This document shows, piece by piece, positions 7,159-51,104 of a stretch of DNA of 64,000 nt. The notes beneath the pieces are model-generated. The model was not told where the DNA came from. It saw only the letters and a program-made list of their open reading frames with translations, and made no database searches. Each line of letters starts with the position of its first letter. Positions within the stretch are counted from its first letter, which is position 1. A program made the translations under genes and the position numbers. Origin of the DNA: Pseudomonadota bacterium (lineage in GTDB: Bacteria; Pseudomonadota; Gammaproteobacteria; Burkholderiales; Burkholderiaceae_F); assembly GCA_021825945.1 (NCBI GenBank), contig JAKAFN010000002.1, positions 41,915 to 105,914 of the forward strand. The letters run 5' to 3'.

Positions 7159-7878
7159 TCACGGGAAGGTTCCACAAAAATGGTCGCTGTCGATATATAC
7201 AACATCCGGGGCGGATACCGCCTGCACCGGCCGGTCGGCGACCCAACTCACCGCCCCGCAAGCACCCTCGCCCAGGAGGAACGGATGCCAATGTACGCCA
7301 GGCCGCGCCGGCCCCGCTTCCCGGAACCGGATCCGCATCGTCGACGCATCGAGACCGATGCCGAGCGCCTTGCCGATCGCTTCGAGTTCACACCAGTGGG
7401 CGATCGCGTCGACGTCACGCCACCCGAAAGCCCCCTCGCGCCAGGGCCGCAGGAATGCACGTACCGCCTCGGCTGCGCCAAGTCGCACACACTCGACGTC
7501 GATGCCGACGCGTGACTGCGCACTGAACACCGCCGCGAAATGCGTCCCGCAATGCGACAAGGAGCAAAACACCGGTTCTCCGGCAATGCATAGCGTTACC
7601 GGACCCGGACCCGCGGACGCCTCGACGCGCGGCGGCGGCACCCCGAACCAGCGCGCCGCCAGGAGCCGCAGGACGATCCGCCCGTAAACGTAATCGAGTT
7701 TGCGTTGCGCGCGAAGGATCCCACGGGCACGTGCGATCTCGGCCGCAGTCAGCAAACCGACCCACTGCCGTACCACGCGCATGCGATGCCCCGATCGATT
7801 TGCAACGACATACGCGGCCGGCGCCGGGATCGACGTCGATACCGGTCCGTACCTTCCTTGGACGGTACCCATCGGCAC
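7159..7878 (-). CDS. 4'-phosphopantetheinyl transferase (Sfp-like); start uncertain
   Basis: SLSHC, VGIDVE and WCELEAIGKALGIGL match PPTase motifs. Last gene of an ACP-containing operon. Confidence 0.8.
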   Translation of the reverse strand: MPMGTVQGRYGPVSTSIPAPAAYVVANRSGHRMRVVRQWVGLLTAAEIARARGILRAQRKLDYVYGRIVLRLLAARWFGVPPPRVEASAGPGPVTLCIAGEPVFCSLSHCGTHFAAVFSAQSRVGIDVECVRLGAAEAVRAFLRPWREGAFGWRDVDAIAHWCELEAIGKALGIGLDASTMRIRFREAGPARPGVHWHPFLLGEGACGAVSWVADRPVQAVSAPDVVYIDSDHFCGTFP

Positions 7879-7882
7879 GGCG

Positions 7883-9160
7883 TCAGAAGAAGTACCGCGC
7901 GCCGAGCGTCACCCGATTTCCCAGGAGACTGGTGCCGAACTCCGATCCGACGGGACCGGCGGTATGCGTGATCGCCAGCCGGAAATCGGTGTGTTCGGTG
8001 ATGGACTTGATGAGTTCGAACTCCGTCAACGTACTGCCGTCCAACCCCGACAGCACGTTGATCGACGCCTGCCCGCCGTTGGCAAAAACATATTCGACGT
8101 GACAGAAAAGATTGCTCGCCCATGGCAGTTCCAGTGCCTGCGCATCGAGCGCAAGCGCGTCGGCGGCAAGCGCAGGGTTGGCGATCGCGCGATCCGCCTG
8201 CAAGGCCAGATCCCAGTTCCGCTGTTCGGCCTTCGTCATGCCGGAATCGTTACGCTGGAACTCCATGCGCACGCCGATCCCCGGGGAGACGTTCCATTGC
8301 ATCCCCAGCATTGCACGACGATAGAACGCCGGCGACGATCGGCGATCGACGAACACGCTCCCCGTTGGATCCGGCCCGTAGAGTGCCGTCGACAGCATGG
8401 GGAAACGGCTTCCGCGCTGCAAGAAAACCGCGGAATAGACCGAACCTTGCGCCGCCAGCAGGCAGCTTCCGCTGGCGCCGCCACCGAGCGCCATGTCACT
8501 CGGCTTCTGCAACAGACCCAAGGCATGGCAAGCGTCTCCGGTGAATCGCCCCGCGATCAGTCCCTGTTTGATCCCCCGATTGAATCCGGGATTGAGCGCA
8601 TTGAAGGCATACCCCGTGCTGTCGGGCCGATCATCGCTGTAGATCGCCTCCAGCGTATGGTGGGCGTCCCCTACCGAGTAGCGCAACGCCGGGAAGCCGT
8701 TCGACCGGTACGAATAGTCGAAAAAATCGGTCGATGCGATGTTGTCGGTGAGGAAATCCAGCACATGCGCATAAAACCCGTCGTCGAAGGATTCGGTGTA
8801 CTTGCCGATCGTCCACCGGCCTCCCAGGAAGTCGCCGCCGGCCGACAGCATCAGCAGCGATGTCCGCCGAGTCACGGTCGAAAACGCCGTCCCATCCACC
8901 CCTCCGCGATCGACCCCATAATCGCTCTTGATGCGAAACGACATGCCATCGATGGAACCGTCGACGACCACGGCAGCGGCACCTCCCGTCGTCGGAAACC
9001 CGGTCAGCGCCCCCGGATCCGCCACCCGGCGCACTGCGGTGTAACTCCCTTTGGTGACCACGGTCTCGGCGAGGGAAACATCACCGGCGCATACCGCGGT
9101 CGGAACGACGGGCAACAATAGCGACGCCGCGATGACGGCCAGCCTGCCGCATTTGCTCAC
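7883..9160 (-). CDS. Putative outer-membrane beta-barrel protein of the biosynthetic cluster
   Basis: GTG start at 9160 overlaps the upstream TGA (GTGA). Signal-peptide-like N-terminus (LAVIAASLLLPVVPTAVCA), aromatic/Gly-rich strands, C-terminus RVTLGARYFF. Confidence 0.65.
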   Translation of the reverse strand: MSKCGRLAVIAASLLLPVVPTAVCAGDVSLAETVVTKGSYTAVRRVADPGALTGFPTTGGAAAVVVDGSIDGMSFRIKSDYGVDRGGVDGTAFSTVTRRTSLLMLSAGGDFLGGRWTIGKYTESFDDGFYAHVLDFLTDNIASTDFFDYSYRSNGFPALRYSVGDAHHTLEAIYSDDRPDSTGYAFNALNPGFNRGIKQGLIAGRFTGDACHALGLLQKPSDMALGGGASGSCLLAAQGSVYSAVFLQRGSRFPMLSTALYGPDPTGSVFVDRRSSPAFYRRAMLGMQWNVSPGIGVRMEFQRNDSGMTKAEQRNWDLALQADRAIANPALAADALALDAQALELPWASNLFCHVEYVFANGGQASINVLSGLDGSTLTEFELIKSITEHTDFRLAITHTAGPVGSEFGTSLLGNRVTLGARYFF

Positions 9161-9909
9161 TCCGCAAAACCATCTACCGTGAAACGACCCGCGGGGCAAA
9201 TCCCCGGGTCGACCCGGCGGATTTCCAATAGCGTGACCGCGCCGGGATCTGCAGGGTCCATGAACCAGGTTTTGACGATCAGGCGCCGGCCGCCGAGGAC
9301 GGTCGGTCGACCATAGCGGGCGATCTTGAACAGTTTCCCGCTGCCGAGGAAAAAGCGTGCGGCGATCGGCCAGCCGGTCTTGTGATCGACCGTGACCGCG
9401 ATGCGCTGGTATGCACGATGCGTCGTCGTCGCGTGCAGATCGATCACCATTGCGTCGGCGCCGGCAGCCGCCGCTCCGCCTTGCCCTTGCGCTGCGACCG
9501 GCGCCCACGACGCCGTATACCTGCCGACCCAATGCGACCGGGCAAGATCGCCATAACTTGCCTGCCCCAGGATGCGCTCGATCGGCGTGATCGCGATCGT
9601 CCTGCTGCTATGCGGCATGCGTACCCAGACGTTCTGCCCCTGCATCAGGACGCGCTCCGACGCATAGCGCCCGCTCAGGACGTCGATTTCCGCGGCATCC
9701 CGTCCGATGCAGACGCGCATGTCTTCCACACCCCATTTCGCACTGGTCAGGCGGATGCGTAGCTGCCCCTCGGCATTGCCGACTCGAACCCGATCGATCG
9801 CGGCCAGCACGGCGGCGGGATCGGGGGAAGGGATGCCGGCGCCGTGCGCCGGCGGACCCCCGGCAATCAGCGCCGCCGTGACGATCCGGGAAATACGGCG
9901 GTGAGTCAT
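9157..9909 (-). CDS. LolA-like outer-membrane lipoprotein-sorting family protein
   Basis: Signal peptide, VLMQGQNVWVRMP, RILGQASYGDL, YQRIAVTVD, FFLGSGKLFK. Lies next to a LolCDE-type ABC. Start moved to the ATG just after the permease stop. Confidence 0.7.
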   Translation of the reverse strand: MTHRRISRIVTAALIAGGPPAHGAGIPSPDPAAVLAAIDRVRVGNAEGQLRIRLTSAKWGVEDMRVCIGRDAAEIDVLSGRYASERVLMQGQNVWVRMPHSSRTIAITPIERILGQASYGDLARSHWVGRYTASWAPVAAQGQGGAAAAGADAMVIDLHATTTHRAYQRIAVTVDHKTGWPIAARFFLGSGKLFKIARYGRPTVLGGRRLIVKTWFMDPADPGAVTLLEIRRVDPGICPAGRFTVDGFAE

Positions 9910-9910
9910 G

Positions 9911-11101
9911 TCATGTATGCCCGAGTTGATCAATGATGCTCATGCGCCGAACCACGCGCCCCGGAATGCAAGCGATCAGACCGCCGAGCGCGACGAATCC
10001 GAGAAACACCAGCAGCGCCGCCACGGGCGAGAAGACGATCTGCAACGGGTACCCGAGCGAGCGACCCGGAGGAGGCGGCATCGAAATGGCGGCGATGCTC
10101 ACCGCGACGGACAGGATCGCGGCCACCGCAATGCCGATCATCGATCCGACCCCCATCACCATCGCCCCCTCCATCGCCAAACTCGCCTGAATCGATCGCA
10201 TGGGAAACCCGATCGCCCGCAGCACGCCGATCTCGCGGATCCGCTCCATCACGCTCATCAGCAAGGCATTGGAAATCGAGAGCAGCACGACCACGATGAG
10301 GATCAGACCGAACACGGAAAAGATCACCCGGTAGATCGATACGACCTGACCGTAGAACGGATCGACTGCAAACCAGGGCTGCACCGCGAGGTCCGGAAAG
10401 GCGCGCCGCAAATCGCGCTCCATGGCGACGAGCCGATCGCCGTGCGTCAACACCACGACGACTCGGGAAGCACCATCGAGGGCCAGCAACGATCGCGCGG
10501 CCACCAGCGGAATCGTCACTCCGCGCCGATCCAGCGCAGGGATGCCGGTTCGATAGGTTCCGCGAACCGAAAAATCCATGGCATTCAGGACACCATCGCG
10601 ATTCGTCACCAGAACGGTGACCAGGTCGCCGGGATGGATGCGCAATGCCCTGGCGAGGTCCGCGGCCACGGTGATTCCGTTTTTGTCGCCATCGCCGAGG
10701 CCGGTGCCGGAAACCACCGGCAGGAACCCGGCATTCAGACGTGACTCTTTTTCGACATCGACGCCGCGCCCGACGAACGACCCCGTGCGATTCCCCGTCG
10801 CGAGCAGGCCCTCGAAATGGATGCGTTCCATGGCGAACCGGACGTCGGGGTCCTTCCGCAGGAATTCCGATATCCGGGCAGCCTGCGTTCCGGTCAGATC
10901 GCGGTCGGGCGCGGGAGATCGAATCTGCAGGTCGCCGGTTTCACCGTCGATGATCGACTGGCGCAACCCCGCGAAGGATGCCAGGACGAAACCGACGCTC
11001 AGCAGGATCGCTGCGACACCTCCCGCGACGACGGATATCGCGAGGAAGGATCGTCGCCGGTTGCGCAGCGTACTCCGGGCGGCATAGCGCATCACGTTCA
11101 T
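9911..11101 (-). CDS. ABC transporter permease, MacB/FtsX/LolE type
   Basis: RNRRRSFLAI N-terminus, one TM plus a large periplasmic loop, then SVMERIREIGVLRAIGF and three C-terminal TMs. ATGA overlap with the ATPase stop. Confidence 0.87.
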   Translation of the reverse strand: MNVMRYAARSTLRNRRRSFLAISVVAGGVAAILLSVGFVLASFAGLRQSIIDGETGDLQIRSPAPDRDLTGTQAARISEFLRKDPDVRFAMERIHFEGLLATGNRTGSFVGRGVDVEKESRLNAGFLPVVSGTGLGDGDKNGITVAADLARALRIHPGDLVTVLVTNRDGVLNAMDFSVRGTYRTGIPALDRRGVTIPLVAARSLLALDGASRVVVVLTHGDRLVAMERDLRRAFPDLAVQPWFAVDPFYGQVVSIYRVIFSVFGLILIVVVLLSISNALLMSVMERIREIGVLRAIGFPMRSIQASLAMEGAMVMGVGSMIGIAVAAILSVAVSIAAISMPPPPGRSLGYPLQIVFSPVAALLVFLGFVALGGLIACIPGRVVRRMSIIDQLGHT

Positions 11102-11814
11102 TCGTCCAGGACTCCGTCGTGTACATGACAGCAACGGTCGACACGCTCGGTCACGCGCACATCGTGCGTGGCGATCAGAAATGCCGTGCGGGTTCCCTGC
11201 TGCAATGTCGCGAAGCAATCGAGCAGACCGGCTGCCGCAGCCGTATCGAGGCTCGCCGTCGGTTCGTCGGCCAGAACGATGGCCGGTTCGGCGACGAGCG
11301 CGCGCGCGGCGGCAACCCGTTGCTGCTCGCCGCCCGACAATCCGGACGGGCGATGACGCTCACGATGGGAAAGGCCGACCCGCGCCAGGGCGAAACGTGC
11401 TCGTTCCCGGCGCTGCGCGCCGGATAGCGCAGAGTGCAACAGCGGGATTTCGACGTTTTCGAGTGCGTTCAGAACCGGAACCAGATTGCCGCTCTGGAAG
11501 ATGAACCCGATCCGCGTCCGGCGGAAGGTGTCGGCGGCACGCCCGCCAGGCGGAGGCGCGTCGACACCGTCGTAGACGACCTTTCCGGAAGTCGGCGCAT
11601 CGAGCAATCCAAGAATGTGGAGCAGCGTGCTCTTCCCGCTTCCCGACGGGCCGAGCAACGCACACATCTGGCCCGGAAACAAAGACAGCGAAGCGCGCTT
11701 CAAGGCGATCACTTCGTCCACCCGCCGGCGATAGATTTTCGATACGCCGACGGCCGCGACGCAGGGGAGAACTCCGCGGGCCGTGCCGCAGGTTTCCGGA
11801 AGGTCTGCGCTCAC
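11098..11814 (-). CDS. ABC transporter ATP-binding protein (LolD/MacB-like)
   Basis: Walker A GPSGSGKS, signature LSGGEQQRVA, Walker B VLADEPT, ATHD. GTG start at 11814 overlaps the upstream TGA. Confidence 0.92.
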   Translation of the reverse strand: MSADLPETCGTARGVLPCVAAVGVSKIYRRRVDEVIALKRASLSLFPGQMCALLGPSGSGKSTLLHILGLLDAPTSGKVVYDGVDAPPPGGRAADTFRRTRIGFIFQSGNLVPVLNALENVEIPLLHSALSGAQRRERARFALARVGLSHRERHRPSGLSGGEQQRVAAARALVAEPAIVLADEPTASLDTAAAAGLLDCFATLQQGTRTAFLIATHDVRVTERVDRCCHVHDGVLDE

Positions 11815-12437
11815 CGTCCGCTCCAGATCGCATCGGCGACGCCGAACGACGCCGCCCGAGCTGCGTGGAGATATCGCGCGCTTGCCGATGGGTCGCCGGC
11901 GCGACGGGCAAGCACGGCAAGCCACGCCAGCGCAGTCGCCCGGTCGCCCGCGCTCATCGTCGAAAATCCGGGATCGGCATAGGCATGGACGAGGTCCCCG
12001 CGGGCGACCGATTCCTGACCAAAGATCGTGGGAATCTGTGCGCAGGTGATGCCCCGGACCATCTCCACTTCCAGGCGCTGCGTGGCGGGAGTGCCGGCCT
12101 TGGCGACGATATCGGTGGCCTCCCCCATCAAATCGAGCGCCAGATGGAGATTGGCCAAGCGACGCCACGGCAACCATCCGTCGCGCGCCTTCAGCGCAGC
12201 GAGACTTCCTTCATAAACCAGCGGGATCGGGTCCGCGGGACGGGTTGCGGCCACATTGCGGGCGAAGTCGAACGCGGCATCGACGGTCGTCGGGTCCGTC
12301 TTCGCCTCATCGAAGCGCGCGATCATCTCGCGGATCGCCGGATCGGCATGGACGCCATAGCAGGACCCCGGTGCCGGTCCGACGACCGCGACGACCAGCA
12401 CGAAAAACCGCGCGAACACCGTTCCCGGTGTGTCCAT
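11811..12437 (-). CDS. Secreted/periplasmic helical (TPR-like) protein of unknown function
   Basis: GGAGG RBS 7 nt before ATG at 12437. Hydrophobic N-terminal signal and Ala-rich helical body. Stop overlaps the ABC ATPase start. Confidence 0.6.
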   Translation of the reverse strand: MDTPGTVFARFFVLVVAVVGPAPGSCYGVHADPAIREMIARFDEAKTDPTTVDAAFDFARNVAATRPADPIPLVYEGSLAALKARDGWLPWRRLANLHLALDLMGEATDIVAKAGTPATQRLEVEMVRGITCAQIPTIFGQESVARGDLVHAYADPGFSTMSAGDRATALAWLAVLARRAGDPSASARYLHAARAASFGVADAIWSGR

Positions 12438-12471
12438 GAAGAACCTCCGCTGCACTGGAAACATCGGGACC

Positions 12472-14766: not shown

Positions 14767-14821
14767 ACGGAAAACACCTCCCCGAATCCGGGTCGAATGA
14801 CGTGTGAACGGCCGGCGATTC

Positions 14822-15562
14822 CTAGCGTTTGAAGCCGCCGTCCACCTTGATCGTCGTCCCGTTCACGTACCGCGCCGCCAGCAGGAACGTCACGGCATCG
14901 GCGACGTCCCCCGGATCGCCGATGCGGTGCAACGACGTGCCATGGACGATGTGCCGAACCATGCCGTCGTCGAGCCGCTCCGTCATCTCGGTCGCGATGA
15001 ACCCGGGCGCGACGGCATTCGCGCGAACGCCGGTCCGACTGGTCTTGCGCGCCAGGAGCTTCGTGAACCCGATCAGCCCGCCCTTGCTGGCCGCGTACGA
15101 AACCTGTCCTTCCTTGCCCACGACTCCCGCCAGCGATGCGATATTGACGATCGATGCGTCGGAACCGGCTCGAAACAGCGGCAGCAGGGCCCAGGTCAGC
15201 CGGATCGTTCCAAACAGGTTTGCTTCCAGCAACGCGGCAATCCGCCCCGTCTCCATCGAAAGAAATGCACCGTCGTCGGTGGTTCCGGCGTTGTTGACGA
15301 TCGCATCCAGCCGTCCCGTGTGCGCGGCGATCGCATCCGCCGCCGCATCGACCGAACGGTCCGAGCGGAGATCCATCCGGACAAAACCGATCGCCGGCAC
15401 CGCGTCGACATTCCCGGCATGGGGCCGATTCCGGTCGACTTCCCCGTGATCGCGGCAGTAGGTGCCGATCACACGCCAGCCGGCGTGCGCCAGCCGGTCG
15501 GCAATCGCCCTACCGATTCCCCTCGTGGCGCCGGTCACCACGACCGTCTTCGGGGTGCTCAT
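14822..15562 (-). CDS. 3-oxoacyl-ACP reductase (FabG-like SDR)
   Basis: TGATRGIG, NNAG, catalytic S and YAASK, VNAV-like RANAVAPGFIATEM. ATGA overlap with the upstream gene. Confidence 0.9.
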   Translation of the reverse strand: MSTPKTVVVTGATRGIGRAIADRLAHAGWRVIGTYCRDHGEVDRNRPHAGNVDAVPAIGFVRMDLRSDRSVDAAADAIAAHTGRLDAIVNNAGTTDDGAFLSMETGRIAALLEANLFGTIRLTWALLPLFRAGSDASIVNIASLAGVVGKEGQVSYAASKGGLIGFTKLLARKTSRTGVRANAVAPGFIATEMTERLDDGMVRHIVHGTSLHRIGDPGDVADAVTFLLAARYVNGTTIKVDGGFKR

Positions 15563-16182
15563 AGATTTCCCTCCGGGAACCCGACGCCCATCGGGATCAC
15601 CAGCCCGGCAAAGCATCGGCAATCCATCTCGCAGAACGTAATGACGGCACACGCAACGGCCGTCGCCGTAACCGGATGAAACCGCAACGCATAGGCCTTG
15701 AGGTCGTCCCGTGCCCCGATCCAGGCGGATTCCGACGCCTGTTCGACAAACGACTGAATGTCGAGGACATTGATCTCCACGCCCATTCGGAACACTTCTT
15801 TCGCCAGGCTCTTGGCCGCGGCGATCCGTGCCCGACTTGCGATCGGCGACTGCGGCAACGTCAGGTAATAGCTGGCGCTGTCCTCCTGGGTCAGGACGAA
15901 TATCTTTCCGCCACCCCGACGAGCCAACACAATCGATGCGTTCCGGATTTCGGTCAGGAACCGCATCATGTCCTCATGGATGCGGTCGACGATTACGGAA
16001 AACTCGTCGTCGTCATCGAGCAGCACGGCCTCGTCGATTGACGGCAGGTCGAACACCACGCAATCGAAGTCGTCGGCGACGGGGATGTTTGCAACACAAT
16101 TCGCGCGCAATCCGCGGGCGGCAGCTTCTGCGAGGATGGCATCGACCAGGGTCGATCGATTTCCCAGGATGGCAAGGTTCAT
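15559..16182 (-). CDS. Degenerate SDR-fold protein (pseudo-ketoreductase)
   Basis: Keeps SDR scaffold remnants (GGGKIFVL, AAAKSLAKE, GVEINVL) but lacks TGxxxGxG and YxxxK. Translationally coupled to the FabG-like gene. Confidence 0.6.
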   Translation of the reverse strand: MNLAILGNRSTLVDAILAEAAARGLRANCVANIPVADDFDCVVFDLPSIDEAVLLDDDDEFSVIVDRIHEDMMRFLTEIRNASIVLARRGGGKIFVLTQEDSASYYLTLPQSPIASRARIAAAKSLAKEVFRMGVEINVLDIQSFVEQASESAWIGARDDLKAYALRFHPVTATAVACAVITFCEMDCRCFAGLVIPMGVGFPEGNL

Positions 16183-16198
16183 GATCGAATCCCCGATG

Positions 16199-17242
16199 CT
16201 AGGAAATCGTTGCGGTTGCATACATCCACGTTGCCGATTCGACGGCCAGGAAGCCGATGCATGCCCCCGGCAGACGGACGGCACCGCGTTCGATGGCAAT
16301 GTCGAGCGCACGGAAGATCGCCGCGGCAGGTGCATTTCCGGTTTCGTCTCCGATGTAAAACCGCTTGGCGTCGAAGACGTGTGTCGCATGGAGTCCCATC
16401 AACGCCGGATTCGCCTGCGGCAACACGACGAGGTCCATGCGATCGACTCCGCCGACCATCTCCAGAAGATCGGTTCGGGCGGCATCGATGACTTCCGGCA
16501 TGATCCGCCGGATCGCCCGATGGTCATGACGACATATGCCATTACACAGCGTGAACCCGGGTCTCCGGTCCGCATACCGTGAGGACACGTTGATCGGGCC
16601 AATCGCGGGGAACCGCGTGACCGTCTCGCCGTGAACCGGCCCGCGCCCGACGACCATCGCCCCCGCGCCATCGGCAAATCCGAGTGCGTTCAGGACATCT
16701 TCGGTCCGGAACGACTTTCGCCCCACCAATGGGGTATAGAACTTGTCGGAAATGAACTCGCTTCCGCAGACCAGAACGCAATCCGCCGCGCCCGAGGTGA
16801 CGCGGTCCCGCGCAATCTTGAGTGCCTGCAGACTCGATGCGCAGCCGCCGCGAACGTCGACGAGGTCGGCGCGACGGATTCCAAGTCGCTTCTGCAGTGC
16901 ATGGGGGAGCGGCGGCAGTTCGGAGTCCGGAGTCGACGTCGCGGTAACGATGAGATCGACATCGTTTGCCATGCATCGGGCCCGTTCCAACGCCCGTTCG
17001 GATGCGCGTGCGGCAAATTCCGTGTTGCAATAGGAGGGATCCCGGAGCCGTCCGGTGCGGGGGTCGACACCGAGGTAGCGGGTTCGTACGCCAAAGAACT
17101 CCATCACCGTTTGCGCCGGGATCGACAGGGCCGACTCGATCTCCGCATTGCCGACGGGCGTTCCGGGCGAATACGAGCCGATCCCGAGAACGACCGCGGG
17201 TACAACCGATTCCGAGGATGCATCGTGTGCAGACGAACCCAT
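16199..17242 (-). CDS. 3-oxoacyl-ACP synthase III (FabH-like), atypical active site
   Basis: GIGSYSPG, IVTATSTPD, GGCASSLQAL (Cys), FADGAGAMVV, GNAPAA (Asn). The HQAN motif is replaced by PQAN. Confidence 0.85.
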   Translation of the reverse strand: MGSSAHDASSESVVPAVVLGIGSYSPGTPVGNAEIESALSIPAQTVMEFFGVRTRYLGVDPRTGRLRDPSYCNTEFAARASERALERARCMANDVDLIVTATSTPDSELPPLPHALQKRLGIRRADLVDVRGGCASSLQALKIARDRVTSGAADCVLVCGSEFISDKFYTPLVGRKSFRTEDVLNALGFADGAGAMVVGRGPVHGETVTRFPAIGPINVSSRYADRRPGFTLCNGICRHDHRAIRRIMPEVIDAARTDLLEMVGGVDRMDLVVLPQANPALMGLHATHVFDAKRFYIGDETGNAPAAAIFRALDIAIERGAVRLPGACIGFLAVESATWMYATATIS

Positions 17243-17253
17243 GGCACCCCCGT

Positions 17254-17544
17254 TCAGGCCGTATCCCCCGCCCGCAGGCGGTGTACGTGTTCGCTGAAGT
17301 CGCGGACGGTGGTGCAGATTCGGGCGATGCGATCGCGGGAGATCTCCCCGAACTTGACCTGAAACAGCAATTCCGCGCCGACGACCAGATCGAGCGCGTC
17401 GACCGAATCCAGACCAAGTCCGCGCTCATCCAGCAAGGGTATGTCGTCGGATATCGACGCCTCGGTGAATCCCAACTCGCCAAGCTCCAGCCGTCCCAGG
17501 AGCAGATCGCTTTTTACCCGCCGCATGATCTCGTCAACACCCAT
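17254..17544 (-). CDS. Acyl carrier protein
   Basis: 96 aa, acidic, with GLGLDSVDALDL (phosphopantetheine Ser) and TVRD. GGAGAAGG RBS. Confidence 0.9.
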   Translation of the reverse strand: MGVDEIMRRVKSDLLLGRLELGELGFTEASISDDIPLLDERGLGLDSVDALDLVVGAELLFQVKFGEISRDRIARICTTVRDFSEHVHRLRAGDTA

Positions 17545-18037
17545 TGCCTTCTCCCCGTTCCGTGTTACTGCGAAAATCGCATGCCGGCGACCACGCCTCG
17601 TGAAGCCACAACTCGGCACGGGCGACTCGCTCTCGGCCGATGTGCGCGCCGCACTTGAATGCGTAGTATTGGGATGATTCCCCCGCCAGCCCCTGGTCGG
17701 TTCGTACCAACGTTGCGCGGAACTGCACGCACTCCCCGGGACGCACGATGCGGTGGAACGTGGCAGAGTCCACCTTCGCCAGGGTGCCGTGGCGGATGGT
17801 TCCATGGCGCGCATTGAGGTAGGCCCTCGACAATTGCGCCATCGCCTCCAGCAGCAAGACGCCGGGCACGATCGGGTCGCCTGGAAAATGCCCCGGAAAG
17901 TAAAATTCGTCGGCGTGGAACAAACGCCGGCCGATGATGCCGCCGGGGTCGTCCAACAGGCTCGCTTCGTCCAGAAAGCGGAACGGATGCGTCTGCCGCA
18001 GCAAGGGAAGTCGTGTCATGGCTCGTCCTGGAAACAT
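17534..18037 (-). CDS. 3-hydroxyacyl-ACP dehydratase (FabZ-like, hotdog fold)
   Basis: HPFRFLD and YFPGHFPGDPIVPGVLLLEAMAQ, with catalytic His and Glu intact. TGATG coupling with the upstream gene. Confidence 0.88.
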   Translation of the reverse strand: MFPGRAMTRLPLLRQTHPFRFLDEASLLDDPGGIIGRRLFHADEFYFPGHFPGDPIVPGVLLLEAMAQLSRAYLNARHGTIRHGTLAKVDSATFHRIVRPGECVQFRATLVRTDQGLAGESSQYYAFKCGAHIGRERVARAELWLHEAWSPACDFRSNTERGEGNGC

Positions 18038-18450
18038 CACGACTCCGCCCGCATGGTTTCCAGACGTGCTAGCGCGATCACCTTCCCGTCTTGGCGCGCA
18101 TGGCATTCGTAGGACGATGCGTTTCCGGTTTGACCCAACCAGCGCGCACAGACGACGACCCCAGGGGGGAAATAGCGTTGCACGAGGAATGCGCCGTCGG
18201 CGATGCGCGTCACATAACCGATTCCGCCGTCGCAGCGCAACGCACTGAGCGTTGCCGCGGCCTGGGCAAATGCTTCGAGCAGCAGAATGTTGGGAAACAG
18301 GTCGCCGACGATTTCCGCAGAACACCAGTCCCGGTTCAGATACATTTCCACGAAGTCCTCCGAGGGAAATCGCGATATGTCGCCGACGATTCGGAATGGT
18401 GGCTTCTGGCGGATCGCGGGGGCATCGATTCGAACCGGGCGGTACGTCAT
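18037..18450 (-). CDS. Degenerate FabZ-like hotdog protein (dehydratase partner)
   Basis: PPFRIVGD and PNILLLEAFAQ retained, GHFP His motif absent. ATGA overlap with the AsnB stop. Confidence 0.65.
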   Translation of the reverse strand: MTYRPVRIDAPAIRQKPPFRIVGDISRFPSEDFVEMYLNRDWCSAEIVGDLFPNILLLEAFAQAAATLSALRCDGGIGYVTRIADGAFLVQRYFPPGVVVCARWLGQTGNASSYECHARQDGKVIALARLETMRAES

Positions 18451-20444
18451 CGTGGTGTCCGCGCTCCAGAGGAGCGGCGCGAAAGACGGGGAATCGGCGT
18501 CACCGTCACGCTTGCCACCTGCGCTTCGATGGTCCGCCGGTGGTATTCGCCCTTTCGGGTCGCAAGGTCGCGCTCGAGCGCAAACGTCGATGACAGCAGC
18601 AACAGCGCCCGTGCGTGGGAATAGGGAAGGGTTGTGCCACCCCGCCCGGCCGTCTTCCGGCGCTCCAGCAGATATTCGCCATGCGGACGCGATGCCCATG
18701 GCAATTCTTCGTTGCCGAGCGAATCCGCGAACTCGTGGAACAAGGGATCGGCGTCGCGGCTTTGGACGAACGCGACATCCGGCGTCAGGTACGATTTCTT
18801 GGGACGATCCACCACGGTGGCCGGCAGGTGATCCCGGTACGCGTCGCGGAGGATTTTCTTTTCCGGACCTTCGCTCGGCAAAACCCACTCCTGCGGCAAC
18901 GATACCGCCAGGGAAACGACATCGGCATCCAGGAACGGGCATCGGTTTTCGATTCCCCAGGCCATGGTCATGCGATCGCCCTGAACCGAAAGCAGGTAAC
19001 CGGCAAGCCGTTTGGAAAGTTCCAGCGCGCGCGCACGCGAGACGGGATCGAATCCGGCGAGATCGGCATAGATCCGCTCCTCGCGTTCTCGGATCCGACG
19101 AAACGCAGCGCCCTGCGCCAGCGTCGATGCCGCAGGCTTGTTGTTGTAATACTGCGGCAGGTGGGAATACAGAAGGTCGTGTCGGTTCGAGAAGCGGCGC
19201 ATCACCAAGCGCATCGCGGCATCGGCGGACTCGCTCCATCCGGTATAGGCTGCCGTGAGATGTGCGGCGATGGCCGCCGCGCCGGGTTGATCGAACGTGG
19301 CGCTTCGAAGGAGCACCTCTTTGAATATCCCATATCCAAGGAAGATTTCGTCCGCGCCCTCACCGCTCAACGCGACGGCGTACCCGTCCGCGTGCAGTTG
19401 GCGCGCCAAGTGATACATGGGGACCGGCGCGACAGTGGGAATCGGTTGCTCGGCGTGATATATCGCATCGCGAAATCCGGCAGCGATCGTCGCCGATGTC
19501 GCCGCGATCCGCCGGTGCACAAGGCCCAGTCGTGCACACACCCTCTCCTGCGCACCGCTTTCATCGTATTCGGTATTCGGGAATGCAATGGAATACGCAG
19601 TGATGCGGCGGGATGAATCGGCGGCGAGTTCCATTGCGATGATCGACGAGTCGATCCCACCGCTCGCCAGCACAGTCACCGGGCGGTTCGCTTGTGCACG
19701 GCGGTGGACGCTCGCTGCGATTCGGTGTCGTACCTCGCGCACCGCATCGTCGCGTGAGCCCGAGTATCGCGGTACCGATCGGCGCCTGCCGGACATTCGG
19801 GATATTTTTCCATTTCGAATCCAGACGCTTTCGCCGGGGCAAACCTGATAGACATTTTGAAACACGGTCTCCGGCGCTGTAACCGCGGACGTCCAATACA
19901 GCGCGCCAAGCGCGTCCGCGTCGTATTGCAGGGAGAACCAAGGCAACGCGAGAAAGGCTTTGGCCTCGGACGCGAACGCCAGCACCGACCCGGACTGCGT
20001 GTAGTAAAGCGGGCGCTTGCCGAGCGGGTCGCGAGTGAGAAGAACGGCTGCGGTCGCGCGGTCGTAATACGCCAGCGCAAATCCGCCGTTGAATCGTTCG
20101 ACCGCACGATTTCCCCATTCGCGCAACGCCGTCAGAACGATTTCGGTATCGCATCGACGCGGAAACATATTGCCGAGTGATCTGAGCTCGCACTCGAGTT
20201 CCGGCCCGTTGTAGATTTCTCCGTTGTAGGAAATCCAGTGTTGACCGCTGTCATCGGACATCGGCTGGCGACTCGCGTCTCCGCCCGCGATCGCCAGGAG
20301 CGCATGGCCCAGGACGCACTGCTCATCATGGACGACCGCGTGCGCGTCCGGGCCGCGATGACCGATCCTCACAACCATTTCACAAACGATACGCACCGCC
20401 CCGGAAGGCAGGCGTGGCGAAACGATCCCGGCGATTCCACACAT
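18447..20444 (-). CDS. Asparagine synthase-like glutamine-dependent amidotransferase (AsnB family)
   Basis: N-terminal MCGIAG (Ntn Cys), HRGPD, NGEIYN, RDPLGKRPLYY, SGGIDSS, SGEGADE, DRMTMAWGIENRCPFLD. Confidence 0.92.
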   Translation of the reverse strand: MCGIAGIVSPRLPSGAVRIVCEMVVRIGHRGPDAHAVVHDEQCVLGHALLAIAGGDASRQPMSDDSGQHWISYNGEIYNGPELECELRSLGNMFPRRCDTEIVLTALREWGNRAVERFNGGFALAYYDRATAAVLLTRDPLGKRPLYYTQSGSVLAFASEAKAFLALPWFSLQYDADALGALYWTSAVTAPETVFQNVYQVCPGESVWIRNGKISRMSGRRRSVPRYSGSRDDAVREVRHRIAASVHRRAQANRPVTVLASGGIDSSIIAMELAADSSRRITAYSIAFPNTEYDESGAQERVCARLGLVHRRIAATSATIAAGFRDAIYHAEQPIPTVAPVPMYHLARQLHADGYAVALSGEGADEIFLGYGIFKEVLLRSATFDQPGAAAIAAHLTAAYTGWSESADAAMRLVMRRFSNRHDLLYSHLPQYYNNKPAASTLAQGAAFRRIREREERIYADLAGFDPVSRARALELSKRLAGYLLSVQGDRMTMAWGIENRCPFLDADVVSLAVSLPQEWVLPSEGPEKKILRDAYRDHLPATVVDRPKKSYLTPDVAFVQSRDADPLFHEFADSLGNEELPWASRPHGEYLLERRKTAGRGGTTLPYSHARALLLLSSTFALERDLATRKGEYHRRTIEAQVASVTVTPIPRLSRRSSGARTPR

Positions 20445-20657: not shown

Positions 20658-20686
20658 ATCGTAGGGATCGCCTATCACTCTGTCAA
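20658..20686 (-). promoter_or_regulatory. Sigma70-type promoter of the biosynthetic operon
   Basis: Minus strand reads TTGACA (20686-20681), 17 nt, TACGAT (20663-20658) in an AT-rich intergenic region, about 205 nt upstream of the AsnB ATG. Confidence 0.7.
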
Positions 20687-22732: not shown

Positions 22733-22900
22733 CGCGTCGTTTCCATGGAAGCTGGACACCCGCACCTTGCGCGCCGCCCCCGCAACCAGGGGAATGGAAG
22801 CGGATTGGCCGGCAACCGGTTCGCCGAACGCGCGACAGGTCGGAAACAGTATGATTTCGGCGATTATCGCGCGTTATCCTTCCTCGCCATCGGAGAGACC

Positions 22901-46776: not shown

Positions 46777-48228
46777 TCAGCCGAGCTTCCGACGCAGGAT
46801 CTCGTTGACATGCTGCGGGTTGGCCTTGCCGCGCGTGGCTTTCATCGCCTGCCCGACCAGAGCTTGGAAAGCTTTCTGCTTACCCGCGCGGTATTCCTCG
46901 ACGGCAACCGGATGGGCCGCGAGCACCGCATCGACGATGGCTTCGATCGCTCCGGAGTCGGAGATCTGCTTGAGTCCCTTCGCCTCGATGACGGCGTCGG
47001 CCGAGACGCCCTCGCCCGCCCAGAGCAGCGCGAACACGTCCTTGGCTGTCTTCAGGTTGACGGTGCCATCGGCCACGCGCGCGATCAGCGCGGCGACCTC
47101 GGTTGCCGGCACGGGACATCGGTCGATCCCGACCTCGGCCGCATTCAACGCGGCGCACACTTCGCCCATCACCCAGTTCGCAGCAGCCTTCCGGTCGGCA
47201 ACCACAGCGGCCACCTCCTCGAAGTACGCCGCCAGTTCGCGGCTCGCCGTCAGCACCAGCGCGTCCTGTGCCGACAGGCCGTAATCGCGCACGAAACGCT
47301 CGCGCATCGCCCCCGGCAATTCGGGAAGCTGCGCCCGCACGGTTTCCACCCAACCGGCGGCGATCTCCAACGGCAGCAGATCCGGGTCGGGGAAGTAGCG
47401 ATAGTCCATCGCATCCTCCTTCGACCGCATCGCCCGAGTCTCGTCGCGATCGGGATCATAGAGGCGCGTTTCCTGCACCACCGTGCCGCCGTCTTCGATC
47501 CGTTCGATCTGGCGACGCGCTTCGTGGTCGATCGCCTGCTGCAGGAAGCGGAAGCTATTGAGGTTCTTGATTTCGACACGAGTGCCAAAGGTCTCCGAAC
47601 CTGCCGGACGGACCGAGACGTTGGCATCGCAGCGAAAGCTGCCTTCCTGCATGTTTCCGTCGCAGACGCCCAGCCACACCACCAACGCATGCAGCGCCCG
47701 CGCATACGCGACCGCTTCGGCGCTGGAGCGCATCTGCGGTTCGCTCACGATTTCCAACAGCGGTGTGCCGGCGCGGTTGAGATCGATCCCCGACATGCCT
47801 CGGTAGTCCTCGTGCAGCGACTTGCCAGCGTCCTCTTCGAGGTGGGCACGGGTCAGTTGCACGGTCTTCCAATACGGCTCGCCGGTGCGCGGTGTCACCG
47901 AGAACTGCAGCGTCCCGCCCTGCACGACCGGGAGTTCATACTGGCTGATCTGGTAGCCCTTCGGCAGATCGGGGTAGAAATAATTCTTACGCGCGAAGAT
48001 CGAGCGCGGTGCGATGGCTGCCTCGACCGCGATGCCGAAACGGATCGCGCATTCGACCGCGCCGCGATTGAGCACCGGCAGCGTGCCCGGCAGCGCAAGA
48101 TCGATCACGCTCGCCTGCGTGTTGGGCGCGGCGCCGAACGCCGTCGATGCACCGGAAAAGATCTTCGATGCCGTGCGCAGCTGCACATGCGTTTCGAGGC
48201 CGATGACGATTTCCCAGGACGTCGGCAT
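46777..48228 (-). CDS. gatB: Asp/Glu-tRNA amidotransferase subunit B
   Basis: [49 protein letters not shown]. Confidence 0.98.
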
Positions 48229-48229
48229 G

Positions 48230-49686
48230 TCAGACCCCCGCAGGCACGCGCGCGTGCCAATCCGTCACCTGCTGATAGCGGTGCGCCACGCCCAGCATTC
48301 GCGCTTCGTCGAAATGGTTCGCCATCAATTGCAGGCCGATGGGCCGGCCGGCGCGGCCGAAACCGCAAGGCACGCTCATCGCGGGAATGCCGGCCAGACT
48401 GCCGGGAACGGTGTAGAGGTCGGACAGATACATGGCGACCGGATCGGCGGACTTTTCGCCGAAACCGAAAGCCACGCCCCCGGTGACCGGGCCGGCGATC
48501 ACGTCGCAGGCCGCGAACGCCTGACGGAATTCCTCGGCGATGATGCGTCGGACCTTGGAGGCCTGAAGAAAATAAGCGTCGTAATAGCCATGGGAAAGAA
48601 CGTAGGTGCCCACCAAGATCCGGCGCTTGACCTCGGCGCCGAAGCCTTGTGCGCGGGTTTTGCGCATCATGTCGACCAGATCGCCATATGCTTCCGCGCG
48701 CCGGCCATAGCGCACGCCGTCGTAGCGCGAGAGATTGCTCGACGCCTCGGCCGACGCGACGACGTAGTACACCGGGATACCCAGTGCGGCGCTGGGCAGG
48801 CTCACCTCGACGAGCTGCGCCCCCTGTTGCGCCAGTTCGCCGAGTGCCGTGCGTACGGCCGTCTCGACCTCCGGCTCCAGTCCGTCGGCGAAGAACTCCT
48901 TGGGCACACCGATGCGCAGTCCATCGAGCCCGGTGTGCAGGAAGCGCGTATAGTCCTCCGGCGGTCGATCGATGCTGGTCGAATCCTTGGGGTCGAACAC
49001 CAGCATGGCGTTGAACACCCGTGCGCAGTCTTCGGCCGTCTGGGTCAGCAGCCCTGCCGTATCCAGACTGGAAGCGAACGCGATCATGCCCCAACGCGAC
49101 GGACGTCCGTAGGTTGGCTTGGTGCCGGTGACGCCCGCGAAGGCGGCGGGTTCGCGGATCGACCCGCCCGTATCAGTCGCCGTCGCCACCGGGGTCAGGC
49201 GCGCCGCCACGGCGGCCGAGGATCCACCGGACGATCCGCCCGGAACGGCATCGTGATCCCAGGGATTGCGGACCGGGCCGTAGGCGCTGTTCTCGTTGCT
49301 CGACCCCATCGCAAACTCGTCGCAGTTGAGCTTGCCCAGGGATACCATACCGGCCTGGGCCAGCGCATCGACGACCGTTGCATCGAAAGGGCTGCGATAC
49401 CCCTCCAGCATCCGGCTCGCCGCAGTGGTATTCCAGTCGCGGGTCACGAACACGTCCTTGTGCGCGATCGGGACGCCCAGCAGGGCACCGCGCTCGCCGC
49501 GCGCACGGCGTTCATCGGCGGCGCGCGCCTGCGCCAGGGTGATCTCCGGCCGGACGTCGAGAAAGGCATTCAGCGCACGGTGGCGTTCGATCCGGTCCAG
49601 ATAGCACCGGGCGAGATCGACGGCGGAAATCTCCCGGCGGTCGAGGAGATCCCCCAAATGCGCGAGCGTGAAGTGGGCCAGTTCGG

Positions 49687-49690
<4 letters not shown>
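48230..49690 (-). CDS. gatA: Asp/Glu-tRNA amidotransferase subunit A
   Basis: [53 protein letters not shown]. Confidence 0.98.

Positions 49691-51104
<1,414 letters not shown>

What the first reader, a model, noticed from the sequence alone, without database searches (positions are those of the whole stretch)
18447..20444. Complete Gln-dependent AsnB amidotransferase heads the operon
Seen: intact N-terminal Cys glutaminase domain and ATP-binding SGGIDS motif, so it is not a Cys-less lactam synthetase or typical lasso cyclase. It is coupled to the dehydratase genes. Established: AsnB homologues OxyD (tetracycline) and ChxD (cycloheximide) supply malonamoyl starter units. Inference: it either primes with malonamate, giving an omega-carboxamide chain, or amidates the final carboxylate.
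Basis: partly seen in the sequence, partly recalled or inferred. Interest (0 to 1): 0.62.

Follow-up and report, generated by a model that had tools for sequence, protein, structure and literature searches.

The report
Carrier-linked amide synthetase heading lipid operon
The first gene of a fatty-acid/polyketide-like operon in a mine-drainage bacterium looks like asparagine synthetase, but its nearest relatives put an amide on a carrier-bound malonyl or succinyl starter unit, so it most likely gives the lipid chain an amide end; its glutamine pocket is oddly altered.

Summary
The ORF is real: 18447-20444, minus strand, 665 aa, with an N-terminal Cys, an SGGIDS PP-loop and SGEGADE. It overlaps the next gene (a His-less dehydratase-like protein) by ATGA and is the first operon gene in every relative.

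It is not a housekeeping asparagine synthetase. The genome has GatCAB and no AsnRS. The orthologue occurs only in the 4 of 14 congeners that carry the KS-CLF fusion.

In trees it falls, with P0006 and P0124, inside or beside a clade whose examined members nearly all sit next to an ACP, usually with an acyltransferase. These are the glutarimide/gladiolin-type (MgsD/ChxD/GbnC) starter-unit amide synthetases. E. coli AsnB, the XrtA type and TsnB9 lie outside. P0006 heads the same AsnB, pseudo-DH, DH arrangement on a distant wastewater contig.

Caveats:
- The operon's ACP is not the cassette type.
- The operon has no acyltransferase.
- An AU test does not reject a sister position.
- The glutaminase domain is not fully intact. 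The glutamine-anchoring Arg49 is Leu in all five clade members, under strong purifying selection.

Verdict: new variant of a known kind.

The parts
20658..20686 (-). sigma-70-like promoter candidate (TTGACA-17-TACGAT), about 215 nt upstream of the AsnB start
   Evidence: Consensus scan: 1 site found against 0.4 expected. The sequence was read. This is a consensus match only.
18447..20444 (-). AsnB-family amide synthetase, 665 aa (P0001). It has an Ntn glutaminase-type N-domain with Cys1 but Leu in place of Arg49, a PP-loop synthetase domain, and a C-terminal extension typical of the ~650-aa MgsD/GbnC-like family.
   Evidence: AF2 gives pLDDT 86.6 and pTM 0.89. Foldseek: 7YLZ TM 0.72/0.82 and 1CT9 TM 0.61/0.80.
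18037..18450 (-). 137-aa FabZ-like protein without the HFPG histidine (pseudo-DH). Its start overlaps the AsnB stop by ATGA.
   Evidence: One search gives the sequence (LLLEAFAQ is kept, there is no GHFPG) and the overlap. No Pfam hit. The same gene follows AsnB in L001-L005 and L100.
17534..18019 (-). 161-aa FabZ/ApeI-like dehydratase with GHFPG...LLLEAMAQ
   Evidence: Pfam FabA. PF22818 ApeI-like in relatives. 47% identity to the L100 DH. Alignment A4.
17254..17544 (-). 96-aa acyl carrier protein (LGLDSVDAL). It is the only ACP in the operon and is not of the MgsC/GbnA cassette type.
   Evidence: PP-binding match. No second ACP in the window.
16199..17242 (-). KAS III-like protein with Cys and Asn kept and the catalytic His replaced by Pro. 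It is inferred to be an acyl-transfer (loading) enzyme rather than a condensing one.
   Evidence: Pfam and NCBIfam. Alignment with E. coli FabH: C112 kept, H244 is Pro, N274 kept, in the window and in L001 and L002.
15559..16182 (-).
   Evidence: Gene call from relatives. Start checked. No Pfam or NCBIfam hit.
14822..15562 (-). FabG-type ketoreductase, 246 aa
12472..14766 (-). KS-CLF fusion, 764 aa. The KS half has the active Cys (VSSACASS). The CLF half has Gly at that position, and no Gln.
   Evidence: In the genus it is full-length only in G000, G001, G004 and G010.
7159..12437 (-). Rest of the operon: a 208-aa protein, an ABC ATPase, a MacB/FtsX permease, a LolA-like protein, one or more ORFs without a family match (the 7883-9532 frame), and a PPTase.
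   Evidence: Pfam and NCBIfam. Same order in L001.
46777..49977 (-). gatB-gatA-gatC (context only). This is the tRNA-dependent route to Asn-tRNA. It makes a housekeeping role for the operon's AsnB unnecessary.
   Evidence: TIGR00132 at 556 bits, NF004014 at 782 bits and TIGR00135 at 93 bits. It is the only Amidase-family hit in the genome. No AsnRS scores over its cut-off.

Best explanation
The gene encodes a divergent member of the MgsD/ChxD/GbnC family of asparagine-synthetase-like amide synthetases. Here it has been recruited to a discrete (type II) KS-CLF/KR/DH system.

Proposed mechanism:
1. A dicarboxylic unit is placed on the operon's ACP. Malonyl is the most likely unit and succinyl is possible. 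The loader would be the cell's FabD or the His-less KAS III-like protein.
2. The synthetase domain adenylates the free distal carboxylate, using the SGGIDS PP-loop and the conserved Glu, Asp and Lys.
3. Ammonia delivered from the N-domain converts the carboxylate to the carboxamide.
4. The resulting malonamoyl-ACP cannot decarboxylate, so it serves as the starter.
5. The KS-CLF fusion, FabG and the DH pair extend it to an omega-carbamoyl unsaturated acyl chain.
6. The MacB/LolA-like cassette handles the product.

Shown here: gene integrity, operon coupling, exclusive co-occurrence with the KS-CLF fusion, the non-housekeeping status, family affinity, and the altered glutamine pocket. Inferred: the substrate, the timing (starter rather than end product), the loader and the nitrogen donor.
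For: (1) Family affinity.
- After four 75-79% orthologues, the next hits are P0124 (40%, 461 bits), P0006 (39%, 414 bits) and then about 370 bits.
- FastTree (202 rows) and IQ-TREE C20 (68-69 rows) place ours plus P0006 inside a 99-100* clade.
- Nine examined members of that clade have an ACP, usually with an AT, beside the AsnB. L014 has AT-ACP-AsnB next to a 7357-aa trans-AT PKS. L013 has ACP-AsnB-PKS. L012 resembles the sesbanimide cluster. L015 and L016 have AT and ACP. L095, L096, L098 and L099 have ACP, an ASS-like protein, AT and AsnB. One further member, L017, has only a distant ACP hit.
- E. coli AsnB, the genome's own XrtA-type paralogue and TsnB9 fall outside.

(2) Literature.
- GbnC amidates succinyl-GbnA using glutamine. 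MgsD-type enzymes are proposed to amidate malonyl-ACP (10.64898/2026.04.24.720606).
- OxyD/OxyP supply the malonamate starter to a type II PKS (PMC7749508).

(3) Operon coupling is old. L100 (P0006) carries AsnB, then a His-less DH-like gene, then a DH 47% identical to the window's.

(4) Co-occurrence. The orthologue is present in exactly the 4 of 14 congeneric genomes that have the KS-CLF fusion. It lies 4-6 kb away on the same strand.

(5) Chemistry (my reasoning from AsnB chemistry, not a tool result). AsnB chemistry needs a free carboxylate. On ACP-bound species only malonyl or succinyl offer one. No thioesterase is seen in the mobile unit.

(6) Need for an external starter. The CLF half has Gly, not Gln, at the active-site position. 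The KAS III-like protein lacks the decarboxylation His. Both are consistent with a separately made starter.

(7) Purifying selection acts on all three parts of the protein. dN/dS is 0.08-0.28.
Against: - The operon's only ACP (LGLDSVDAL) is not of the cassette ACP family (G-x-x-DSFG). No AT gene is in the operon.
- One ACP would have to carry both starter and extender units.
- The clade sits on a long stem of about 1.1-1.2 substitutions per site. The AU test does not reject a tree in which it lies outside the cassette clade (lnL difference 22, p 0.22).
- The family's 99%-conserved 'FR' in the substrate loop is PT here and HC in P0006.
- The glutamine-anchoring Arg49 is lost, so glutamine use is uncertain.
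- OxyD was not available for comparison.
- No expression or product data exist.
Confidence: 0.5

Rival explanations
1. Terminal tailoring. The chain is finished and released as a free (poly)unsaturated acid. The enzyme then adenylates that C1 carboxylate and converts it to a primary amide, as SoaC does with sorbic acid and as TsnB9 does, with hydroxylamine, on trichostatic acid.
For: - SoaC is an AsnB homologue that amidates free sorbic acid with Gln and ATP and does not make Asn (PMC13284220).
- TsnB9 (7YLZ) is the best solved-structure match by sequence (E 1.3e-42) and by fold (TM 0.72/0.82).
- The cassette-type ACP and the AT are missing here.
- The substrate loop has diverged.
- The AU test leaves room for a position outside the cassette clade.
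Against: - TsnB9 falls on the far side of starred branches from our clade. It tops the PDB list only because no MgsD-type structure exists.
- No thioesterase or hydrolase gene is in the mobile unit. The 4HBT gene upstream is absent from the L002 flank.
- The gene sits first in the operon, next to the ACP and the KAS III-like gene, rather than among late genes.
Confidence: 0.2
2. Carboxylate-amine ligase or altered-donor enzyme. The glutamine pocket is remodelled. The enzyme may therefore no longer use free L-glutamine. It might couple its adenylated substrate to free ammonia, to another amide or hydroxylamine/hydrazine carrier, or to an amine. PdmN- and FdmV-type AsnB homologues of type II PKS pathways act this way (recalled from memory, not checked here).
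For: - Arg49 is Leu, with D54G and G58S, in 5 of 5 clade members. Among about 340 homologues only Cys-less proteins otherwise lack the Arg.
- Human Arg48 is the residue positioned to contact glutamine (PMC6748925).
- AF2 confidence drops to about 56 for residues 51-60.
- Further family-conserved arginines of the N-domain are lost: R68Q, R84E/Q and R140P/E.
Against: - Cys1, Asn74-Gly75-Glu76 and Asp98 are all kept.
- The N-domain is the most constrained part of the protein, with dN/dS 0.08-0.14. This fits a working hydrolytic site.
- The nearest lineage (P0006, P0124) has the canonical Arg with the same operon head.
Confidence: 0.12
3. It amidates an envelope carboxylate unrelated to the fatty chain, such as a peptidoglycan or exopolysaccharide residue, as other large AsnB paralogues do. 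On this view it is only co-located with the lipid genes.
For: - Many ~650-aa AsnB paralogues lie in glycan loci (L095, L096).
- The genome's own XrtA/PEP-CTERM amidotransferase is such a case.
Against: - ATGA coupling to the DH-like gene.
- The same operon head on a distant contig.
- Strict co-occurrence with the KS-CLF fusion within the genus.
- Even the glycan-locus relatives carry their own ACP and AT.
Confidence: 0.05
4. Housekeeping glutamine-dependent asparagine synthetase (Asp to Asn).
For: TIGR01536 scores above its cut-off, so automatic annotation would name it this way. The Glu-Asp-Glu cluster of the synthetase site is kept.
Against: - It scores below the AsnB equivalog cut-off: NF006949, 257 bits against 499.
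- The equivalent of E. coli Asp384 (human Asp400 of the amino-group pocket) is not conserved.
- No AsnRS scores over its cut-off, and GatCAB is present.
- It is absent from 10 of 14 congeners.
- It is far from E. coli AsnB in every tree.
Confidence: 0.02

Closest known systems
MgsD / ChxD / SbnJ-or-K-type and GbnC / EtnC / SorQ amide synthetases, which amidate the starter unit of trans-AT PKSs on a dedicated ACP
   Same: - Same ~650-aa AsnB architecture with N-terminal Cys, PP-loop and C-terminal extension.
- 35-41% identity.
- ML trees nest our clade among proteins found in AT-ACP-AsnB-PKS cassettes.
- The chemistry (ATP plus an amide nitrogen acting on the free carboxylate of ACP-bound malonyl or succinyl) fits an operon with its own ACP.
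   Different: - It is partnered with discrete type II enzymes (KS-CLF fusion, FabG, a FabZ-like pair) rather than a modular PKS.
- There is no cassette-type ACP (DSFG motif) and no AT.
- The family 'FR' loop is replaced.
- Arg49 is lost.
- No GbnM-like amidase is in the genome; the only Amidase-family hit is GatA.
- The named reference sequences themselves were not available. Membership is judged from context-defined homologues.
OxyD (with OxyP), the malonamate starter supply of the oxytetracycline type II PKS
   Same: An AsnB homologue encoded beside a discrete KS/CLF/ACP system. It makes an amide-bearing starter (PMC7749508).
   Different: The OxyD system builds aromatic, non-reduced polyketides in actinomycetes. 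This system is a reducing one with KR and DH, has an export cassette, and lies in a Gram-negative-type genome. The sequence relationship to OxyD was not tested because no OxyD sequence was at hand.
TsnB9 (PDB 7YLZ) and SoaC, AsnB homologues that act on free polyketide acids
   Same: TsnB9 is the best solved-structure match. In both cases the substrate is a polyketide-type carboxylate and not aspartate. SoaC makes a primary amide of a dienoic acid (PMC13284220).
   Different: TsnB9 lies outside the clade in the tree. These enzymes need a released acid, and no release enzyme is seen in this operon.
E. coli AsnB / human ASNS
   Same: Same fold (TM to target 0.75-0.82). Shared Cys1, Asn74-Gly75-Glu76, Asp98, the PP-loop, Glu348/Asp351/Glu352 and Lys449.
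   Different: 22-28% identity. Arg49 is Leu. Asp384 and Arg387 are not conserved. The protein carries extra insertions and a C-terminal extension. It is not needed for translation in this genome.

Membership tests
Class II (Ntn) glutamine-dependent asparagine synthetase, AsnB | N-terminal Cys nucleophile directly after the initiator Met | tested here: met
   The protein begins MCGIAG at the first start codon of the open frame.
Class II (Ntn) glutamine-dependent asparagine synthetase, AsnB | Complete glutamine-binding set (E. coli Arg49, Asn74, Gly75, Glu76, Asp98; human Arg48...Asp96) | tested here: not met
   Arg49 is Leu, with D54G and G58S, in 5 of 5 clade members. The other residues of the set are kept. 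The role of the Arg is taken from PMC6748925.
Class II (Ntn) glutamine-dependent asparagine synthetase, AsnB | PP-loop SGGxDS and the catalytic Glu/Asp/Lys of the synthetase site | tested here: met
   SGGIDS at 261-266 and SGEGADE at 360-366. The Lys449 equivalent is an invariant column.
Class II (Ntn) glutamine-dependent asparagine synthetase, AsnB | Aspartate pocket (E. coli Asp384 / human Asp400) and an equivalog-level score | tested here: not met
   YDCAR aligns with LLS-VQ. NF006949 scores 256.8 bits against a cut-off of 499.
Class II (Ntn) glutamine-dependent asparagine synthetase, AsnB | Physiological need and distribution of a housekeeping enzyme | tested here: not met
   No AsnRS, and GatCAB is present. 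The orthologue is in only 4 of 14 congeners, always together with the KS-CLF fusion.
MgsD/ChxD/GbnC-type ACP-dependent starter-unit amide synthetases | Phylogenetic placement with enzymes encoded in ACP(+AT)-AsnB cassettes | tested here: inconclusive
   It is nested with SH-aLRT 99-100 in three trees. The AU test does not reject exclusion from the cassette clade (p 0.22). The stem branch is long.
MgsD/ChxD/GbnC-type ACP-dependent starter-unit amide synthetases | Dedicated small ACP of the MgsC/GbnA type next to the gene | tested here: not met
   The only ACP lies two genes downstream and is closest to E. coli AcpP (24 bits, 22% identity), not to the cassette ACPs. No cassette-type ACP is in the window.
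MgsD/ChxD/GbnC-type ACP-dependent starter-unit amide synthetases | Acyltransferase that loads the dicarboxylic unit | tested here: not met
   No Acyl_transf_1 gene was found among the operon's genes. A His-less KAS III-like protein is present instead. Its role as loader is inference.
MgsD/ChxD/GbnC-type ACP-dependent starter-unit amide synthetases | Amidation of malonyl- or succinyl-ACP with glutamine | not testable with these tools
   This needs an enzyme assay. Literature basis: 10.64898/2026.04.24.720606.
OxyD-type amidotransferases of type II PKS | Encoded with a discrete KS/CLF/ACP set | tested here: met
   The KS-CLF fusion, the ACP, KR and DH are in the same operon.
OxyD-type amidotransferases of type II PKS | Sequence relationship to OxyD, DacD or SsfD | not tested
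TsnB9/SoaC-type free-acid amido/hydroxyamido-transferases | Groups with TsnB9 and acts on a released acid | tested here: not met
   TsnB9 (a partial sequence taken) falls outside, across starred branches. No release enzyme is in the mobile unit. Activity was not testable.
Lasso-peptide cyclase / beta-lactam synthetase (Cys-less AsnB homologues) | Loss of the N-terminal Cys, plus family-level HMM scores | tested here: not met
   The Cys is present. NF033535 scores 164.6 against 525, and NF033561 scores 83 against 300.

The most novel reading that the evidence does not exclude
The N-domain has been re-tooled. It has lost the otherwise near-universal arginine that holds the alpha-carboxylate of glutamine, and it carries two further changes in the same loop. 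It keeps the catalytic Cys and is under the strongest purifying selection in the protein. It may therefore take nitrogen from a donor other than free L-glutamine, for example a glutaminyl or amide compound without a free alpha-carboxylate, or a hydroxylamine or hydrazine carrier. That would put an unusual nitrogen head group on a carrier-bound starter of a type II-made unsaturated lipid, which a private Lol/MacB-like route then exports.
Probability: 0.15. Interest if true: 0.75.

Novelty: new variant of a known kind. Interest (0 to 1): 0.5.

Why it matters
Starter-unit amidation by AsnB homologues is known from aromatic type II PKS (OxyD) and from trans-AT PKS (glutarimides, gladiolin). If the reading holds, this operon extends that logic to a reducing, discrete KS-CLF/KR/DH lipid system with its own envelope-export genes, in an uncultured acid-mine-drainage bacterium.

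It predicts a concrete and testable product class: omega-carbamoyl unsaturated acyl chains.

It also warns against the automatic name 'asparagine synthase'.

The lineage is very rare. In a library of 1.84 billion representatives at 50% identity, only one representative stands for this clade and one for its sister. It offers a natural variant of an Ntn amidotransferase that lacks the glutamine-anchoring arginine, which is useful for understanding donor recognition.

Tried and rejected
- **Housekeeping Asn synthetase:** rejected.
- **Lasso cyclase or lactam synthetase:** rejected.
- **TsnB9-like placement:** tested with a partial 7YLZ sequence and not supported.
- **Cassette-type ACP or AT hidden in the window:** none found.
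- **GbnM-like amidase for 'cryptic' amidation:** the only Amidase-family hit in the genome is GatA.
- **Metagenome scan with P0006:** no relatives found.
- **Metagenome scan with a DH alignment:** returned almost only loci with no other operon gene, probably housekeeping fabZ. It also returned one other polyene-type (APE/flexirubin-like) cluster, L118, without AsnB, which was uninformative.
- **Genome-collection scan with the family alignment:** The sample was used as tree background.
- **Careful IQ-TREE run:** it did not finish, so quick-search trees are reported.
- **AU test:** it did not reject the alternative.
- **Literature search for AsnB in aryl-polyene or highly reducing type II clusters:** nothing relevant found.
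- **OxyD, ChxD, MgsD and GbnC reference sequences:** they could not be fetched, so the family is represented by context-defined homologues.
Full report
**The gene.** The finding's coordinates hold one open frame on the minus strand, 18447-20444, of 665 aa.
- It starts MCGIAG at the first possible start codon, with an AAGGG box a few bases upstream.
- Pfam finds GATase_6/7 and Asn_synthase.
- NCBIfam's general model TIGR01536 scores 399.9 bits (cut-off 267). The E. coli-type AsnB equivalog scores 257 of 499, the XrtA-type 253 of 817, the lasso cyclase 165 of 525 and the macrolactam cyclase 83 of 300, so all of these fail.
- SGGIDS is at residues 261-266 and SGEGADE at 360-366.
- An AlphaFold2 model from a 32-row alignment is confident, with pLDDT 86.6 and pTM 0.89. 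It matches TsnB9 (7YLZ, TM 0.72/0.82) and E. coli AsnB (1CT9, TM 0.61/0.80).

**The operon.** The AsnB stop overlaps the start of the next gene by ATGA. Gene calls from relatives and my own checks give the order below.
1. AsnB.
2. A 137-aa FabZ-like protein without the catalytic His.
3. A 161-aa FabZ/ApeI-like dehydratase.
4. A 96-aa ACP.
5. A KAS III-like protein in which FabH His244 is Pro, while Cys112 and Asn274 are kept.
6. A 207-aa protein with no family match.
7. FabG.
8. A 764-aa KS-CLF fusion. The KS half has the active Cys. The CLF half has Gly at that position and no Gln.
9. A 208-aa protein.
10. An ABC ATPase.
11. A MacB/FtsX permease.
12. A LolA-like protein.
13. One or more ORFs with no family match.
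14. A PPTase.

Upstream of AsnB lies a 430-bp gap with a TTGACA-17-TACGAT site at 20686-20658. The same gene order follows the 75-79% orthologues in five metagenome contigs. One of these, L002, has an entirely different upstream flank, so the unit begins with AsnB. The first four genes have 62.5% G+C against 66.7% in the flank.

**Not a housekeeping enzyme.**
- The genome (2.5 Mb, 100% complete) has three AsnB-family genes. One is an XrtA/PEP-CTERM amidotransferase (1089 bits), one is a Cys-less paralogue 8 kb from it, and the third is this gene.
- No asparaginyl-tRNA synthetase reaches its cut-off.
- gatB, gatA and gatC lie in this very window at 46777-49977. Asn-tRNA can therefore be made on the tRNA.
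- Among 14 species of the genus, a full-length KS-CLF fusion exists in four. The AsnB orthologue (76-79% identity) exists in exactly those four, 4-6 kb from the fusion on the same strand. The other ten have at most a ~30% hit, like the genome's own XrtA-type paralogue.

**Relatives and their contexts.** Identity falls from 75-79% straight to about 40%. An exhaustive HMMER pass over 1.84 billion representatives gives one representative for this clade. Next comes P0124 (40%, 461 bits; 60% identical to P0006), and then about 370 bits.

The ~40% relatives are not in amino-acid metabolism contexts:
- In Kitasatospora mediocidica the gene follows an AT and a 94-aa ACP and precedes a 7357-aa trans-AT PKS.
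- In a Xenorhabdus it follows an ACP and precedes a PKS.
- In a Bacteroidota MAG it follows an ACP next to a trans-AT PKS with an HMG-CoA-synthase cassette, a P450 and a methyltransferase. [quoted passage not shown]
- A Streptomyces locus and a Polyangiaceae locus repeat the AT-ACP-AsnB arrangement.
- Four further members sit in a recurrent cassette of ACP, a ~337-aa argininosuccinate-synthase-like protein, AT and AsnB. Two of these lie in glycan loci and two beside other secondary-metabolite genes (NRPS/PKS; YcaO).

These cassette ACPs form one recognisable family with a G-x-x-DS[FY]G motif.

**Trees.**
- I ran a FastTree of 202 sequences and IQ-TREE (LG+C20 PMSF, quick search) trees of 68 and 69 sequences. 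All put our five sequences plus P0006 together (99*). All place them inside a clade (99-100*) that contains every cassette-associated member.
- E. coli AsnB, the XrtA-type group and TsnB9 lie outside. TsnB9 was entered as a partial sequence taken from the alignment printed.
- The stem of our clade is long, at 1.1-1.2 substitutions per site.
- An AU test of the alternative 'ours plus P0006 lie outside the cassette clade' costs 22 log-likelihood units but is not rejected (p 0.22).
- The affinity to this family is therefore solid. Strict nesting is not.

**A distant copy of the operon head.** P0006 lies on a 2.9-kb wastewater contig. It is followed by a 139-aa His-less FabZ-like gene and then by a dehydratase 47% identical to the window's (E 4.5e-32). 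This is the same AsnB, pseudo-DH, DH order. The link between this AsnB lineage and the dehydratase pair is therefore much older than the mine-drainage genus.

**What is known about the family.**
- A 2026 preprint shows that GbnB loads succinyl onto the ACP GbnA, that GbnC amidates it with glutamine, and that an amidase later removes the amide.
- The same work summarises the proposal that MgsD-type enzymes amidate malonyl-ACP in glutarimide pathways. It extends the proposal to etnangien and sorangicin (10.64898/2026.04.24.720606).
- OxyD and OxyP supply the malonamate starter of a type II PKS. Adding them to the chelocardin cluster gives the carboxamido analogue (PMC7749508).
- Free-acid amidation also exists. 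SoaC converts sorbic acid to sorbamide with Gln and ATP and does not make asparagine (PMC13284220).

**Where this enzyme departs from its family.**
- The only ACP in the operon (LGLDSVDAL) is closest to E. coli AcpP (24 bits, 22% identity), not to the cassette family. Neither a second ACP nor an AT is present in the operon.
- At positions conserved in at least 93% of 77 family members, the clade has its own residues.
- In the synthetase domain, the 99%-conserved Phe-Arg of the substrate loop is Pro-Thr here and His-Cys in P0006 and P0124. This loop aligns with E. coli Val320-Thr321 of the DVTTIR segment. I recall, without having checked here, that this segment is involved in aspartyl-AMP formation.
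- In the N-domain the changes are R49L, D54G, G58S, G36A, R68Q, R84E/Q and R140P/E.
- Arg49 (human Arg48) belongs to the hydrogen-bond network that recognises glutamine. Among the residues mutated in human ASNS deficiency, it is the only N-domain one placed to touch the substrate (PMC6748925).
- All five clade members read GHALLAIAGG. About 340 other homologues keep the Arg, except two that have also lost the Cys, and possibly one further protein, P0253.
- The N-domain is nevertheless the best conserved part of the protein, at 84-92% identity and dN/dS 0.08-0.14. The synthetase domain has dN/dS 0.15-0.21 and the C-terminal part 0.16-0.28.
- The model's confidence falls to about 56 in residues 51-60.
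- I cannot explain this. A different way of holding glutamine, ammonia dependence, and another donor all remain open.

**Mechanism proposed.** AsnB chemistry needs a free carboxylate, and I saw no release enzyme in the mobile unit. On that basis the most economical reading is as follows.
1. A malonyl (or succinyl) group is put on the operon's ACP.
2. The enzyme amidates it at the distal carboxylate.
3. The amidated unit cannot decarboxylate, so it becomes the starter.
4. The KS-CLF fusion, FabG and the dehydratase pair extend it.

Two observations fit a system that depends on a separately made starter. The CLF half has no priming Gln. The KAS III-like protein lacks the decarboxylation His. Assigning the latter as the loader or transfer enzyme is my inference. 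I give this explanation 0.5. I give terminal amidation of a released acid 0.2, an altered-donor or amine-ligase function 0.12, an unrelated envelope target 0.05 and housekeeping 0.02.

**Limits.**
- The reference enzymes OxyD, ChxD, MgsD and GbnC were not available as sequences. The family is represented by homologues defined by their gene context.
- The careful tree search did not finish.
- Two metagenome scans added nothing.

**Verdict.**
- The gene is a new, rare variant of a known kind of enzyme in a new kind of partner pathway.

Noticed in passing
L095 5834-9998; L096 8001-12181; L098 7788-14204; L099 179-6746: A recurrent, apparently uncharacterised cassette: ACP (DSFG type), a ~337-aa argininosuccinate-synthase-like PP-loop protein, an acyltransferase and AsnB, followed by an acyl-CoA dehydrogenase in L098 and L099. 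It occurs in glycan loci and beside NRPS/PKS or YcaO genes. The PP-loop partner might process the new amide further, for example to a nitrile or amidine. That is speculation.
   Followed up: partly
window 46777-49977 (minus): gatB-gatA-gatC operon. The genome has no AsnRS over its cut-off, so Asn-tRNA is presumably made by transamidation.
   Followed up: yes
window 16199-17242 (minus): The KAS III-like protein keeps FabH Cys112 and Asn274 but has Pro in place of His244, in the window and in the two relatives aligned (L001, L002). This points to acyl transfer rather than decarboxylative condensation.
   Followed up: partly
window 12472-14766 (minus): In the KS-CLF fusion, the CLF half carries Gly where the KS half has the active Cys (TLVGGDAG against VSSACASS). 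It has no priming Gln.
   Followed up: partly
own genome contig C5, 76-86 kb (L006, L007): An XrtA/PEP-CTERM-type amidotransferase (TIGR03108, 1089 bits) and a Cys-less AsnB paralogue lie 8 kb apart. This is presumably an exopolysaccharide locus.
   Followed up: partly
L097 2468-8455: In the neighbouring AsnB clade: an AMP-ligase, a 277-aa protein, a PPTase, AsnB (P0055) and an NAD-synthase-like protein. This is another carrier-linked amidation set.
   Followed up: no
window 7159-20444: The cluster has lower G+C (0.643, and 0.625 for the first four genes) than the flank (0.667). It is present in 4 of 14 species of the genus, and in L002 it lies in a different flank. It behaves as a mobile accessory unit.
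   Followed up: partly
window 20876-23287: An MsbA-like ABC half-transporter lies directly upstream on the same strand, and a 4HBT thioesterase gene lies beyond it. Both are conserved in L001 and L003-L005 but absent from the L002 flank, so they are probably not part of the unit.
   Followed up: partly
L012 (Bacteroidota MAG JBLNBE010000014.1): A sesbanimide-like trans-AT PKS locus in a MAG labelled Bacteroidota. It contains ACP-AsnB, an HMGS cassette, a P450 and a methyltransferase.
   Followed up: no
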